Shown: piece after piece, positions 32,310-36,716 of the stretch
Layout: the number at the start of each line of letters is the position of its first letter
Position numbering within the stretch: position 1 is the first letter of the stretch
Position numbers and translations under genes: made by a program
Assembly (NCBI GenBank): GCA_964344235.1
Contig: CAYFMJ010000007.1
Span: forward strand, 1-39,511
Direction of reading: 5' to 3'
DNA length: 39,511 bases
DNA from: an uncultured Methanosarcinales archaeon
Lineage (GTDB): Archaea; Nanobdellota; Nanobdellia; Woesearchaeales; GW2011-AR9
Notes under the pieces: generated by a model
Told to the model about the DNA's origin: nothing
Database searches by the model: none
The model's input: the letters and a program-made list of their open reading frames with translations, nothing else

Positions 32310-35300
32310 TTATTCCTTAGAGAACAATGGTACAGCTAACTTCTGCTCGCCCAGATAATCAGTTCCCGTTGCTAATGGAATGACACATTGATTAAGACGG
32401 CCTACTTCAGGTAATACTCCAACTTTTCCAGAATTGCAATAACTAAATGTGATCTCTCCGGGCAAGATATGACCTGAGAAAGGGTCAACCGCAATTGGGT
32501 TATTAACATCACCAATAGGTAAATTGAACCATGCATCGGTCATCGGTGCTTCAGTTACGGAAGTATCAATTCTTTGTTGATAAATATCCCCCACTACTTC
32601 TGCTGAAGTGGAACCCCAATACCGAAGGCCGCCTTTTTTGAGAGGTCGTAATTCTCCTTTAGAGCCTTTCCAATCCCCTAACCAGCTAACGTGAACTTCT
32701 AACGAGGATGGATCGACAACGCCATCTCCCAAAGAATCTGTTGGGGGAGCAACAAGTACGAATGTTAAACTATCATTTTTCATTGAAGTTCCTGTTTTCC
32801 CGCCGATTGCGACAGCTTTTTCTCCTGCATTAATACTACCAGTGTATTTCCGATCTGCGGTGAAGCCGCCTAAAGAGGTTGCAGTTCCAAATTGTGTTAC
32901 TCCCTGTAATGTCTGAAGGATTGCACTTCGTGCTTCAGTTGTGTAGCCGGGAACAGGTGCGCATGTCGGTTCGGCGGTGTAAATTACTTTACCGTTTCGT
33001 TTCACTTGCGAAACGGAATACGGCTCACATCTATTTCCAGTTGTTAATGAAAGATATGCTTGTCCAAGTTCTATAGGCGCAATTGGTTTTGAACCAAGAA
33101 CAATGGAAGGAAGAGGCTTCCACTGTGATGCCCCATCAATACCAAGTTCTTCGATAAATTGGAAGAATGATTTTATTGCAACTTGTCTTGTATAATCTGG
33201 ATGGTTTAATGGATCTTTATCCATTTCAGCAGTGGTTTGGGCAGTGGTAAGTCTGTCTATAATATGTGCTGGGATCATGCCCGCTAAATGTACTTGATCA
33301 AGAGATGCTGCTAAGAGACGATCTCTTTGTACTTGAACGAGATCTGGGGCTGAAACGCCACTAGGAACTGCTGGGAGAAGTCCTGCTGCATGATCTCTTT
33401 CTAAAGGTGTTGCTTGAGCTTCAAGTATATTTACTGTCCCATTCATATACTGATGTTGGGGGTGAGTCTGGTTAGGGAAATATGCTGGTTGTAATGTGCC
33501 ATTATGTTCAGTAACGAAGAATTGTCCTCCAAGTGTTTCTCCTTTCGCGAATCGCGCTAAGTCTTCTCTAGCACTTTCGATCATGAATTTGAGATTACCA
33601 TAATTATCAAAGTCGATTCCATCAAGTGCACCTGCAAGTTGTGGCGCTTTTGCTTTCAGGTCCCGCTTTGCAGCACTAAATCGATATAATTCTGAACGTC
33701 CGCTCGGGAATTCTCGCTCATAATTTAATCGTAATGTCGCTGTGTGTTCATCAGGATCGCCACTTCTTCTTTGTGCTATGCCAGAGGCAATATACCATTG
33801 ATCAAATTCTTCATTAAGTGAGCGGATTAACCAACTTATGTGGCTTCTTGTGTCTTCTGTGGTCTTCGGCGCTGCTCTTATTTCACGTAATTCATCTCGT
33901 AGCACTTCTATTTTGTTCTCTCTTGCATCTCCCTCAAGCATAACATAATCGTCAGTGTTGTAAACAATACCAATGGTTTCCATGCCGGCGGTAATTGAAG
34001 CTCGATACTCTACTTCAGTGGCACGTAACATTTTTCTTGCAAGCAACTCAGTTACCTGGGCGGGTGAGAAGTAATCAGCGGGTACGCTGGCTAACGTTTC
34101 TTGAAGTTGCACAACTACTTGTACGGGAATTTTTCCATCTCTATGAGCAATAACCAGATTGTCCAAGTTGTATGCAGTTGCCTCAGCTGTTTCTGTTGGT
34201 GGAGTTACGCTTTTTAGTGTTGATGCAGGGTTATGAAGATTTGTGATGGGTTCTTCTGTTAATGTATAACCAACACGTAATTCTCCGTTTACTGGAAAGA
34301 CGAAAAAACTTCCTTGGGAGGCATGTCCAGGGGTTTTTGCAATACCTGCACGGTAGTCGGTACGAGCAGCAGCAGCCATTGTTTGTAAGCCAAGAGAAGT
34401 TCTATACGTTTCACGAGTTATCTCTTCCAAGAATGGTTTTTTCTTTTCCGTAACTCTAACTCCTTTCAATTTCTTACGCACTTCATCATAGCCAACGCCA
34501 TGCGGTAATTTCTCAACTGCTGCAATGATGTCTGGAGCAACACCCTCCTCTGTTAATGCAGCAACAACAGTTGCTTTTGCAGCATCATATTTCATACGTT
34601 CAACAACGCCGGGAGTAAAGTTAAGTCCAAATTTGTCACGGAGTCTTTCTCGGAATTGTTTGGGGGTTTCAGCGTTTTCACCACGTCTCTGCGCCATGTC
34701 AACAGATGCTGCGATTTTTGCAAACTCTGCAGGAGATACTTTATCTAATACATGATATAGCAGATACGCTGTTGCAACGTTATCGGAGTTAACACCCATT
34801 CCCCATAAAGTTGTATCCTTGTTACCATTATAATGTCCATTCGTCGGAACCCAAGGTCTATCACCAATAAAGAATGGTCTTTCTGTGTTTGGAATACCAT
34901 CAGTGATATCCCAACCATGGGAGATTGCGTAGGCCAGTAGTAGTGGCTTGAGAGTTGAACCCGGTTCATGGGCCGCTGCGGCATGGTTGAAGTCACGATT
35001 ATCCCAGCTTCCGAGCAGGGAAGTTATTTTTCCATCAGATTCTAGGTGTACATAGGAACCTGCAAAGGTTGGTCGTTGTTCAATGTCAACCATAAATGTT
35101 CCGTCGTCGGTTTTACCGCTCACACTTGCGAGGAAGACTTTGCCTTCGTGGTCATTAAATTTGTCCATAAACTCTCTTGTGCAAGTGATGTTACAGGAAG
35201 CGTTTCTCCCTTTACGATGTTTATTCCAGGCTGTTGCGAGACGTGTGATACTTTCATAATCCATAATACCTGTTGGATACTCTATGTTGTCAGTGTCATC

Positions 35301-36716
35301 GCCAAATGCCACTTTGATAGTGCTAAATTTTGTTTGTGTTTTCTTTGTTTTTCTAGTTCCCGATTTTTTTACTTTTACAAGACGTACTTTGTAGAATTCT
35401 CCTTCTTCCGGTTGTGTTACATTACTTGGTTTAACGTCATCATCAAATAATTTTATTCCTTCTAAGCCAATACTTAGTGGAGTCAGTGCGTGCCGAAGGG
35501 TATATTGGTCCTGTGTCTGTTGGGCAAAATCTAGTGTTGTAGCTATTTCAACTCTTCCCTGGTTCCAATACTCGGGAAGTTTTCCCGCTTCATGAAGTGC
35601 ATCCAATTCTTCAAGTGCAAGTGTGGCACTAGAATCTGGTTGCTTAACAACACTGCCTTGCTTGAATGGAACGCCTTTCTCAGCAAGAAGCTTTTTTGCA
35701 TCACTATGTTCTTGAGGAGTGATCTTTCCTTCTTCTAACATCCTCTTAAGAACATGAGCTGTTCTGCCAATAGCAGCATCTTTTGCTTTCTCTCGCTTTT
35801 CTCCAGATGTATTCAAAGGGTTGAGCTTTGTTGGATTTTGGTACGTTCCCGCTATAAAAGCAAGTTCAACCACACCAAGTTCCTTTAAGGGTTTATCAAA
35901 ATAATACCGCGCAGCATCTTCAGGTCCATGAAGACGAAGTGCTGAGGAGTTCATGTTAAAATATAACTCGATTAATTTCTCACGCCCTCCCCTTGAACCG
36001 TATTTCTTTACTAAAGAATCAGTTAATTCCCAACCTGCCGTTGCTTGTGGTATTTTATAGTCAACAATGCCACCATGTTTCATCTCTTGAGCATTTTTCG
36101 CAATTTGCATTGCTAAAGTGCTACCACCAAGTGTCGGTTTACCACCGATGAGAGCATTATAACCTTTACGTACAGCTGCTCTTGCAATCCCCATTGGATC
36201 GACTCCATCATGTTCCCAGAAATTTGCGTCTTCCGTTGCAATAAGCGCGTCGACAAGAGGTTTTGGTAAGTCGTCAAATTCAACATAATCAAAATGGTTA
36301 TCTTCACTGTCAGCTAATGCAGCAACTTTGATGCCATGTCTATCAGAAACTGAAACATTTTGTCGTAAACTATGTTCAATATTCTCTACCCAATTGCCGT
36401 GTTCCTGTGTTGCGAAATATTTTGCACTATGCCAAGCAACAGGTACTGCAAGTGCACCTACTACACCAGCGATTGCCCCCCATTTTGTTGCGTTCCAACC
36501 CCAATGTTTAAGTCTATCAACTAATGTTCTTCCTGTTTGTGAAGAAGATCTTTTAGGGGCACGGGTCTTAGTCTGGCGGGGGGACTTTCTTTTAGAAGAT
36601 CTTGATTGTGGTGCAGCACGTGTTCTGGTAGGAGCTCGTGCAGAACTTGATCTACCTCTACGTGGAGGAACATGAGATCTAGGAAGGCGCGCCATAGAGG
36701 GCCAAAAAGAGGCCAT
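32310..36716 (-). CDS. Class A penicillin-binding protein (GT51 transglycosylase + transpeptidase) with large insertions
   Basis: Basic cytoplasmic tail plus one TM helix; EDANFWEHDGVD, GGSTLAMQIAKN, KLIELYFN; transpeptidase motifs GSTLKP (SxxK), SDN (SxN), KTG. Confidence 0.92.
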   Translation of the reverse strand: MASFWPSMARLPRSHVPPRRGRSSSARAPTRTRAAPQSRSSKRKSPRQTKTRAPKRSSSQTGRTLVDRLKHWGWNATKWGAIAGVVGALAVPVAWHSAKYFATQEHGNWVENIEHSLRQNVSVSDRHGIKVAALADSEDNHFDYVEFDDLPKPLVDALIATEDANFWEHDGVDPMGIARAAVRKGYNALIGGKPTLGGSTLAMQIAKNAQEMKHGGIVDYKIPQATAGWELTDSLVKKYGSRGGREKLIELYFNMNSSALRLHGPEDAARYYFDKPLKELGVVELAFIAGTYQNPTKLNPLNTSGEKREKAKDAAIGRTAHVLKRMLEEGKITPQEHSDAKKLLAEKGVPFKQGSVVKQPDSSATLALEELDALHEAGKLPEYWNQGRVEIATTLDFAQQTQDQYTLRHALTPLSIGLEGIKLFDDDVKPSNVTQPEEGEFYKVRLVKVKKSGTRKTKKTQTKFSTIKVAFGDDTDNIEYPTGIMDYESITRLATAWNKHRKGRNASCNITCTREFMDKFNDHEGKVFLASVSGKTDDGTFMVDIEQRPTFAGSYVHLESDGKITSLLGSWDNRDFNHAAAAHEPGSTLKPLLLAYAISHGWDITDGIPNTERPFFIGDRPWVPTNGHYNGNKDTTLWGMGVNSDNVATAYLLYHVLDKVSPAEFAKIAASVDMAQRRGENAETPKQFRERLRDKFGLNFTPGVVERMKYDAAKATVVAALTEEGVAPDIIAAVEKLPHGVGYDEVRKKLKGVRVTEKKKPFLEEITRETYRTSLGLQTMAAAARTDYRAGIAKTPGHASQGSFFVFPVNGELRVGYTLTEEPITNLHNPASTLKSVTPPTETAEATAYNLDNLVIAHRDGKIPVQVVVQLQETLASVPADYFSPAQVTELLARKMLRATEVEYRASITAGMETIGIVYNTDDYVMLEGDARENKIEVLRDELREIRAAPKTTEDTRSHISWLIRSLNEEFDQWYIASGIAQRRSGDPDEHTATLRLNYEREFPSGRSELYRFSAAKRDLKAKAPQLAGALDGIDFDNYGNLKFMIESAREDLARFAKGETLGGQFFVTEHNGTLQPAYFPNQTHPQHQYMNGTVNILEAQATPLERDHAAGLLPAVPSGVSAPDLVQVQRDRLLAASLDQVHLAGMIPAHIIDRLTTAQTTAEMDKDPLNHPDYTRQVAIKSFFQFIEELGIDGASQWKPLPSIVLGSKPIAPIELGQAYLSLTTGNRCEPYSVSQVKRNGKVIYTAEPTCAPVPGYTTEARSAILQTLQGVTQFGTATSLGGFTADRKYTGSINAGEKAVAIGGKTGTSMKNDSLTFVLVAPPTDSLGDGVVDPSSLEVHVSWLGDWKGSKGELRPLKKGGLRYWGSTSAEVVGDIYQQRIDTSVTEAPMTDAWFNLPIGDVNNPIAVDPFSGHILPGEITFSYCNSGKVGVLPEVGRLNQCVIPLATGTDYLGEQKLAVPLFSKE

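What the first reader, a model, noticed from the sequence alone, without database searches (positions are those of the whole stretch)
32310..36716. Full-length class A PBP (murein polymerase) in an archaeal chromosome
Seen: GT51 motif 1 Glu and motifs 2, 4 and 5 are intact, motif 3 is degenerate (YKIPQ for RKxxE), and all three transpeptidase motifs are intact. It sits between a DHH gene and the HIT/tfb block with no mur genes in the window. Established: the enzyme needs lipid II, which archaea do not make. Inference: it uses host-derived substrate, for example to reseal or build a collar at an attachment site, or it acts as a peptidoglycan-binding or cross-link-editing protein. It would be the synthetic counterpart of the hydrolase operons.
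Basis: partly seen in the sequence, partly recalled or inferred. Interest (0 to 1): 0.82.

Follow-up and report, generated by a model that had tools for sequence, protein, structure and literature searches.

The report
Bacterial-type wall synthase in DPANN archaeon
A tiny archaeon that cannot make bacterial cell-wall building blocks nevertheless keeps an intact, unusually long copy of the bacterial enzyme that polymerises and cross-links cell wall, most likely to act on wall material from neighbouring bacteria.

Summary
Observation confirmed. 32310-36716(-) is one open 1468-aa frame: basic N-tail, one TM helix, a GT51 glycosyltransferase domain, an OB-like linker, and a penicillin-binding transpeptidase (TP) fold split by a ~467-aa insert. 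SxxK, SxN and KTG are intact.

The gene is resident in an archaeal chromosome. TFB and GatD flank it, codon usage is genome-typical, and two same-family genomes keep GatD-APH-DHH-HIT-TFB with DHH and HIT adjacent (empty site).

The 96%-complete 1.19-Mb genome showed no Mur ligase, MurA or SEDS, so no lipid II pathway was found.

The "degenerate" motif 3 (YKIPQ) is real and invariant in the only two orthologue clusters found, both archaeal-looking. E. coli PbpC natively has the same state (GGSTLTMQ...KIRQ), so it does not show a dead glycosyltransferase.

The protein belongs to a long-form class A PBP family otherwise labelled Thermodesulfobacteriota, Myxococcota and Fibrobacterota.

GT51 genes occur in 20 of 401 good genomes of the phylum, with at least two origins. 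This scan met class A PBPs in Woesearchaeota on other DNA four times; I found no paper describing them.

Function is inferred, not shown: most likely action on foreign peptidoglycan. Read coverage could not be checked.

The parts
32310..36716 (-). Whole ORF, 1468 aa plus stop: long-form class A PBP homologue
36492..36716 (-). Residues 1-75: cytoplasmic, disordered-looking, very basic tail (20 K/R, 1 D/E). Not conserved in the orthologues. The true start may be M8 (36693-36695), 22-30 nt downstream of a TTAATAAAT box.
36423..36491 (-). Residues 76-98: the only hydrophobic helix, a type II (N-in) membrane anchor
   Evidence: hydropathy over 1.4 only here
35739..36305 (-). Residues 138-326: GT51 peptidoglycan glycosyltransferase domain. 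E162 is kept. Motif 2 is GGSTLAMQ. Motif 3 is YKIPQ (Q224).
35079..35423 (-). Residues 432-546: OB/S1-like beta domain between the GT and TP modules
   Evidence: Z 6-7.5 to S1 domains, a weak match
34704..35066 (-). Residues 551-671: first half of the transpeptidase fold, with SxxK (S587, K590) and SxN (S644, N646)
33303..34703 (-). Residues 672-1138: insert inside the TP domain. The first ~125 aa are helical, confidently modelled and shared with the bacterial long-form family. The rest is variable, with long helices and two helix-plus-beta-hairpin modules that are weakly alike.
32547..33302 (-). Residues 1139-1390: second half of the transpeptidase fold, with KTG (K1307). C1230 and C1252 are invariant in the orthologues.
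32313..32546 (-). Residues 1391-1468: poorly conserved C-terminal tail modelled with low confidence

Best explanation
This is a horizontally acquired, now resident, long-form class A penicillin-binding protein.

It is anchored N-in by one helix in the archaeal membrane. The GT51 module sits at the outer membrane face and a complete acyl-serine transpeptidase module lies further out. Both modules are under constraint.

The cell cannot make lipid II, so the substrate must come from outside. I infer that the protein works on bacterial peptidoglycan material from a host, prey or neighbour. The TP serine (S587) would be acylated by D-Ala-D-Ala stem peptides and so cross-link, trim or tether them. 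The PBP1C-type GT51 module would bind glycan strands, and would elongate them only if lipid II reaches the archaeal membrane, for example together with scavenged host lipids.

Shown here: the identity, topology, motif state, residency, absence of the precursor pathway and the family relationships. Inferred: the substrate and the biological role.
For: Identity and folds.

Topology: one TM helix after a basic tail.

Constraint: the three orthologues are about 32% identical overall. Invariant residues make up 30% of GT51 and 38% and 26% of the two TP halves, against 6-13% of the insert and 3-5% of the tails. All three TP motifs are invariant in 41 relatives.

The GT motif state equals that of E. 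coli PbpC. PbpC supplied glycosyltransferase-dependent labelling when overproduced (PMC6131605).

No precursor pathway was found in the own genome, which is 96.3% complete with 0.6% contamination. None was found in the orthologue's genome G414 either. 13 of 20 other GT51-bearing genomes of the phylum have no Mur-ligase hit.

Residency: synteny with an empty site in G015 and G005, and genome-typical codon usage.

Other wall-directed domains on the same contig: YkuD and M23.

Large murein-directed lytic proteins are reported for Woesearchaeota and Pacearchaeota and are read as signs of bacterial hosts (PMC8204110, PMC9723730).
Against: No bacterial partner is known.

The anchor places the GT51 site at the archaeon's own membrane, the geometry for a substrate in that membrane and not in a host's.

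A Gram-negative host's wall lies behind an outer membrane.

There is no operon link to the hydrolases.

No expression or read data could be obtained.
Confidence: 0.5

Rival explanations
1. Binding or sensing protein without polymerase activity. The GT51 module would be only a glycan-strand binder, or a single-Glu lysozyme-like cutter. The TP module would serve as an adhesin, a DD-carboxy/endopeptidase, or a receptor for muropeptides or beta-lactams.
For: Q224 replaces a Glu that the literature calls catalytic (PBP1b E290 in PMC7400108; S. aureus PBP2 E171 in PMC12229560). Motif 2 is also altered. The cell has no lipid II.
Against: E. coli PbpC has the same GT motif state and is treated as a glycosyltransferase. 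The rest of the GT51 active-site motifs are kept, and the domain is as conserved as the TP halves. The cytoplasmic tail is not conserved, which argues against a signalling receptor.
Confidence: 0.2
2. It acts on the archaeon's own envelope. It would polymerise a self-made lipid-linked glycan, for example polyprenyl-PP-GlcNAc2, and/or cross-link surface peptides.
For: The membrane geometry fits a substrate in the cell's own membrane. The genome encodes an AglH-like GT4 and an Alg14/Alg13 (MurG-related) pair, and a DUF368 polyprenyl-phosphate-translocase-like gene lies at 7123-7959.
Against: Those genes are ordinary archaeal N-glycosylation genes. No source of a D-Ala-D-Ala peptide was found (19 bits only). 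The gene is absent from most relatives, which have an empty site, so it is not part of a core envelope. From my own knowledge, GT51 enzymes need the lactyl-peptide part of lipid II.
Confidence: 0.12
3. Decaying relic of a transfer, with no function.
For: Patchy distribution. Scores against the curated PBP models are low.
Against: The 4.4-kb frame is open. Catalytic motifs are invariant across orthologues only 32% identical, and the domains are more conserved than the linkers.
Confidence: 0.05
4. Misassembly or a bacterial contaminant in the bin.
For: Metagenome-assembled genome. Read coverage could not be checked.
Against: Both flanks continue a gene order conserved in two same-family genomes (TFB 92-97%, GatD 64%, HIT 65-67% identity). 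Codon usage lies in the 2nd percentile of distance from the genome mean. The orthologues sit in 72-248-kb contigs with archaeal-type neighbours (LSM, Translin).
Confidence: 0.02

Closest known systems
Long-form (about 1100-aa) 'transglycosylase domain-containing proteins' of Thermodesulfobacteriota/Deltaproteobacteria, Myxococcota and Fibrobacterota (e.g. MBN2467180.1, MEW6220492.1, Desulfobulbus sp. F1/F5)
   Same: Same architecture: TM anchor, GT51, OB-like linker, and a TP domain with an enlarged SxN-to-KTG region. They form one clade with the window's protein (SH-aLRT 100).
   Different: These keep K..E in motif 3 and GGSTxTQQ in motif 2. Their insert is about 380 aa shorter. They sit in bacteria, which as a rule make peptidoglycan; this was not checked for these genomes.
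E. coli PBP1C (PbpC, b2519)
   Same: Same GT51 motif state: GGSTLTMQ and KIRQ, with Gln at the second-Glu position. It is also a non-essential class A PBP with an unclear role.
   Different: PbpC has a C-terminal BiPBP_C domain and an alpha2-macroglobulin neighbour, and has no TP insert. The window's protein scores 95.8 bits against TIGR02073, whose cut-off is 494. It falls in another clade, so the shared motif state looks convergent.
Canonical class A PBPs (Aquifex PBP1a 2oqo/3nb6, E. coli PBP1b 5hl9, S. aureus PBP2 2olv)
   Same: Both folds match: Z 21.9 for the GT domain and Z 31.6 for the TP domain. The first catalytic Glu, SxxK, SxN and KTG are shared, as is the type II anchor.
   Different: The second Glu is Gln. 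About 660 residues separate SxN from KTG, against the usual ~130-190 (my own knowledge). The host organism is an archaeon without a lipid II pathway.
Other class A PBP genes of Woesearchaeales-type DPANN archaea
   Same: Bacterial-type class A PBPs resident in small archaeal genomes that mostly lack Mur ligases.
   Different: Most are short forms (about 680-1100 aa) that keep the second Glu and fall elsewhere in the tree. This clade of three is the longest and carries the PbpC-like motif state.

Membership tests
Class A (bifunctional) penicillin-binding proteins | N-terminal single membrane anchor with the catalytic domains outside | tested here: met
   The only hydrophobic helix is at 76-98, after a tail with 20 K/R
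Class A (bifunctional) penicillin-binding proteins | GT51 domain (Pfam PF00912 over its cut-off; GT51 fold) | tested here: met
   111 bits against a cut-off of 27; Z 21.9, rmsd 1.8 A over 183 aa to 3nb6
Class A (bifunctional) penicillin-binding proteins | First catalytic Glu in motif 1 (EDxxFxxHxG) | tested here: met
   E162; E in 218 of 218 aligned GT51 domains
Class A (bifunctional) penicillin-binding proteins | Second Glu in motif 3 (RKxxE) | tested here: not met
   Q224, invariant in the three orthologues. The aligned column holds E 196, D 12 and Q 10 of 218. E. coli PbpC also has Q.
Class A (bifunctional) penicillin-binding proteins | Penicillin-binding transpeptidase fold with SxxK, SxN and KTG | tested here: met
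   S587/K590, S644/N646 and K1307-T-G. Fold Z 31.6 over 296 aa to 5hl9. Pfam PF00905 alone is below its cut-off at 20.7 against 22.1 bits.
Class A (bifunctional) penicillin-binding proteins | NCBIfam PBP_1a_fam (TIGR02074) at its curated cut-off | tested here: not met
   196.8 bits against a cut-off of 508.75; divergent, and the TP domain is split by the insert
Class A (bifunctional) penicillin-binding proteins | Lipid II supplied by the same cell (MurA-F, MraY, MurG, Ddl) | tested here: not met
   No Mur_ligase_M, EPSP/MurA or SEDS was found, and Ddl scored only 19 bits. The GT4 hit is followed by a GT2 gene, and the weak MurG-like hit is an Alg14/Alg13 pair. The genome is 96% complete. The six-frame scan misses weak domains.
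Class A (bifunctional) penicillin-binding proteins | Glycan polymerisation and beta-lactam acylation | not testable with these tools
   Needs a protein assay
PBP1C subfamily (TIGR02073) | GT51 motif state GGSTxxMQ plus K..Q | tested here: met
   Pairwise alignment to E. coli K-12 PbpC
PBP1C subfamily (TIGR02073) | C-terminal BiPBP_C domain (PF06832), the curated model score, and an alpha2-macroglobulin neighbour | tested here: not met
   No PF06832 hit at E up to 1; 95.8 bits against a cut-off of 494; the neighbours are DHH and HIT
Long-form class A PBP family (unnamed) | Forms one clade with the ~1100-aa proteins; OB-like linker; enlarged SxN-to-KTG region | tested here: met
   20-row clade with SH-aLRT 100; two-stretch matches to about 140 such proteins; alignments

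The most novel reading that the evidence does not exclude
The enzyme is catalytically competent, and these archaea polymerise and/or cross-link genuine peptidoglycan at their surface or at a cell-cell junction. They would use lipid II or nascent strands taken from a bacterial partner. This would be the first murein-synthase activity in an archaeon, and a molecular handle on DPANN-bacterium symbiosis.
Probability: 0.12. Interest if true: 0.9.

Novelty: new variant of a known kind. Interest (0 to 1): 0.6.

Why it matters
Archaea are defined in part by lacking murein. Here a bacterial wall synthase has been kept under selection in genomes that cannot make its substrate. About 5% of good genomes of this phylum carry such genes, acquired more than once.

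That pattern points to a use directed at bacteria, and so to bacterial hosts or prey for uncultured Woesearchaeota. The hosts of these archaea are unknown. The protein offers a concrete, assayable entry point, through Bocillin labelling, lipid II assays and fluorescent D-amino-acid labelling.

The clade also shows that the PbpC-type Gln-for-Glu state of GT51 arose independently. This bears on what the second Glu does.

Tried and rejected
- The search for related loci with the 10-sequence alignment had no conserved stretch. The 3-sequence alignment found one orthologue only.
- The Atlas feature search of the insert gave nothing at 0.9 or above. No fold could be assigned to the insert.
- Alignment A4, for folding the insert alone, was mis-registered and was dropped.
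- The mixture-model tree did not finish on one CPU. The tree used is LG+G4 'quick', so deep placements are soft.
- I first read Q224 as evidence for a dead glycosyltransferase. I rejected that after finding Q or D in 22 of 218 GT51 domains and in E. coli PbpC.
- I tried to show that G008's class A PBP sits at the same DHH site. The contigs do not overlap, and its upstream gene looks like an RNA 3'-terminal phosphate cyclase (RtcA) judged by eye from its first residues, not HIT.
- The supplement of Subedi 2021, named in an earlier check, is not held. [quoted passage not shown]
- Caution on absences: the six-frame genome scan missed this gene's own PF00905 part and the window's YkuD domain. Absences are safe only for strongly detectable families.
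- Internal duplication of the insert is only marginal: Smith-Waterman score 49 against a best shuffle of 48, z 4.2.
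Full report
WHAT IS THERE

The minus strand of 32310-36716 is a single open frame of 1468 codons. Its parts, in order:

- Residues 1-75: a very basic tail (20 K/R, 1 D/E).
- Residues 76-98: the only hydrophobic helix. This is the type II, N-in anchor typical of class A PBPs.
- Residues 138-326: a GT51 domain. Pfam Transgly scores 111 bits against a cut-off of 27. The best solved relative is Aquifex PBP1a at E 7e-25. A confident model (pLDDT 86.9) superposes on it at Z 21.9, rmsd 1.8 A over 183 residues.
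- Residues about 432-546: a domain that folds like an S1/OB barrel (Z 6-7.5, a weak match).
- The remainder: a penicillin-binding transpeptidase (TP) fold in two halves, 551-671 and 1139-1390, around an insert of about 467 residues. The model (pLDDT 72; above 90 in both halves) matches the E. coli PBP1b TP domain at Z 31.6, rmsd 2.6 A over 296 residues, spanning both halves.

Pfam's Transpeptidase model sees only residues 579-653 and falls just under its cut-off. NCBIfam's PBP1A model scores 197 bits against a cut-off of 509.

CATALYTIC RESIDUES

In the GT51 domain:
- Motif 1 is intact (EDANFWEHDG, E162).
- Motif 2 is GGSTLAMQ, where the canonical form is GGSTxTQQ.
- Motif 3 is YKIPQ, with Q224 aligned to the second Glu of RKxxE.

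The TP motifs are S587-T-L-K, S644-D-N and K1307-T-G. They are invariant in alignments of 10 and 41 relatives.

What changes is its meaning. Y220, K221, Q224 and W229 are invariant in the three orthologues, which share only about 32% identity. In 218 aligned GT51 domains the column holds E 196, D 12 and Q 10, and the bacterial Q cases that carry names are mostly PBP1C-family proteins. E. coli K-12 PbpC itself reads GGSTLTMQ...GKIRQ at the aligned positions.

That Glu is called catalytic in PBP1b and in S. aureus PBP2 (PMC7400108; PMC12229560). Even so, PbpC is annotated as a peptidoglycan glycosyltransferase. When overproduced it restored glycosyltransferase-dependent labelling in cells lacking PBP1b (PMC6131605). 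Q224 is therefore a conserved alternative state, not evidence of decay or of inactivity.

THE GENE IS ARCHAEAL AND RESIDENT

- The window is the whole contig C7 of a 1.19-Mb, 37-contig genome, 96.3% complete and 0.6% contaminated.
- The window carries TFB, GatD, a PAC2 protein and DnaK/DnaJ/GrpE.
- A same-family genome's class A PBP is deposited as Candidatus Woesearchaeota.
- The gene's codon usage is among the closest to the genome mean: 2nd percentile of distance among 402 ORFs of at least 300 aa.
- Most tellingly, two genomes of the same family without any GT51 hit (G015 and G005) keep the order GatD-APH-DHH-HIT-TFB. TFB is 92-97% identical, HIT 65-67% and GatD 64%. In them DHH and HIT lie 146-268 nt apart.
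- In this genome the 4.4-kb gene sits exactly in that gap, with spacers of 33 and 42 nt.

A chimeric join would not restore the same gene order on both sides. Read-level confirmation was not possible.

NO PRECURSOR PATHWAY

- The genome gave no hit to Mur_ligase_M, EPSP synthase/MurA or SEDS. Ddl scored 19 bits.
- The single MraY-family hit is a 332-aa GT4 protein, followed directly by a GT2 gene.
- The weak MurG-like hit is an Alg14 plus Alg13-like pair, that is, N-glycosylation-type genes.
- The genome holding the closest species-level orthologue also lacks Mur ligases.
- Of 20 other GT51-bearing genomes of the phylum, 13 have no Mur-ligase hit. Six have one protein of about 400 aa, a size that would fit FolC; I did not test this. 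G032 has three, two of them beside a 284-aa GT51 on a 12-kb contig that may be bacterial.
- One caution: the six-frame scan missed weak domains known to be present. These absences are reliable only for strongly detectable families.

RELATIVES

Among 1.84 billion representative proteins only two clusters are true orthologues, at E 3e-97 and 3e-55.
- Their full-length members are 1255 and 1220 aa, on contigs of 72-248 kb.
- One contig has LSM and Translin neighbours and is labelled archaeal at NCBI.
- They share the insert, in shorter form.

The next relatives are about 140 proteins of roughly 1100 aa that match in two stretches. The named ones come from Deltaproteobacteria/Thermodesulfobacteriota (including Desulfobulbus), Myxococcota and a Fibrobacterales genome.

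In a tree of 50 proteins:
- The three orthologues form a clade (support 100).
- That clade sits inside this long-form family (support 100).
- Other archaeal class A PBPs (G040, G026, G003/G010) fall elsewhere, so starred branches force at least two origins.

A FastTree of 117 long-form proteins gives an 11-member subclade (support 0.89). It holds all members with archaeal evidence, namely this clade, G008's Woesearchaeota protein, and P0178 beside an RFC-like gene. The origin of the others is unknown.

This fits one old transfer of the long form from a bacterium into DPANN archaea. The donor is not resolved.

GT51 hits occur in 9 of 41 close relatives and in 20 of 401 good genomes of the phylum.

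CONSTRAINT

Across the three orthologues, invariant positions make up:
- 30% of GT51;
- 38% and 26% of the two TP halves;
- 6-13% of the insert;
- 3-5% of the tails.

Both catalytic modules look to be under purifying selection.

MECHANISM

Everything in this section is inferred.

The anchor and domain order put the GT51 site at the outer face of the archaeon's own membrane, with the TP site further out. The cell makes no lipid II and no evident D-Ala-D-Ala. The substrate should therefore be foreign peptidoglycan material.

The most economical reading has two parts:
- S587 is acylated by pentapeptide stems of bacterial wall or nascent strands, and cross-links, trims or tethers them.
- The GT51 module holds glycan strands. 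It could extend them only if lipid II enters the archaeal membrane, for instance with scavenged host lipids.

The contig also carries YkuD-domain and M23-domain secreted-type proteins. Published work reads the large lytic transglycosylase proteins of Woesearchaeota and Pacearchaeota as signs of bacterial hosts.

Against this reading:
- No partner is known.
- The membrane geometry favours a substrate in the cell's own membrane.
- The gene stands alone rather than in an operon.

Rivals are a catalytically silent binder or sensor, action on a self-made lipid-linked glycan, a relic, and misassembly. Their odds are given in the separate fields.

NOVELTY

I found no paper describing class A PBPs in DPANN archaea. 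[quoted passage not shown] Databases merely label such proteins "transglycosylase domain-containing".

This scan has met class A PBPs in Woesearchaeota four times on other DNA. One later check there rated endogenous wall synthesis unlikely, which agrees with what I find here.

What is particular to this window:
- the long form;
- the large TP insert;
- the conserved PbpC-like motif state;
- the clean empty-site comparison.

Noticed in passing
window 1-51 and 39459-39509; also the ends of contigs C1, C2, C4, C6, C8, C10, C12, C13, C15 and C29 of the same assembly: The 51-nt terminal inverted repeat of this contig is real. Its first 30 nt also sit within 4 nt of the ends of at least ten other contigs (the copy on C29 ends 5 nt from the contig end). 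It is therefore an assembly-wide end sequence, either an adapter or linker or a dispersed repeat at which assembly breaks, and not a feature of this locus.
   Followed up: partly
window 36759-37859 (-) and 36722-37252 (-): The 366-aa ORF with an N-terminal HIT domain is conserved over 305 residues (65-67% identity) in two same-family genomes, so the long HIT-plus-extension form is the real gene. The overlapping 176-aa ORF is probably a shadow frame.
   Followed up: partly
window 8603-10900 (-) and 14567-17086 (-): A 765-aa protein has a YkuD (L,D-transpeptidase family) domain. An 839-aa protein combines a metallophosphoesterase domain with a Peptidase_M23 domain. Both are further wall-directed domains on the same contig.
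   Followed up: partly
window 7123-7959 (-): DUF368/VCA0040-like gene (undecaprenyl-phosphate-translocase-like), 256 bits. It is a candidate polyprenyl-phosphate flippase that could serve any lipid-linked glycan pathway.
   Followed up: no
G000 contig C1: L002 1237-2235 (-); L003 873-1905 (-): An AglH/MraY-superfamily GT4 gene is followed by a GT2 gene, and there is an adjacent Alg14 plus Alg13-like (MurG-related) pair. The cell could plausibly make polyprenyl-PP-GlcNAc2.
   Followed up: partly
G032 contig C37 (L017), 12 kb: A 284-aa monofunctional GT51 lies beside two Mur ligases in a same-order bin. It is either a bacterial contaminant contig or a genuine mur cluster in a DPANN genome. Worth a separate look.
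   Followed up: no
G010 contig C4 (L016 4435-9357): A very divergent 1096-aa GT51 protein of a same-family genome lies within 500 nt of two HIT-domain paralogues, recalling the HIT neighbour here. This may be coincidence.
   Followed up: no
window 32277-32309 and 36717-36725: A TTATAAAA box lies about 20-27 nt upstream of the DHH start codon. A TTAATAAAT box lies 22-30 nt upstream of the second Met (M8) of the PBP gene. Both spacings fit leaderless archaeal promoters, so the PBP may start at M8.
   Followed up: no
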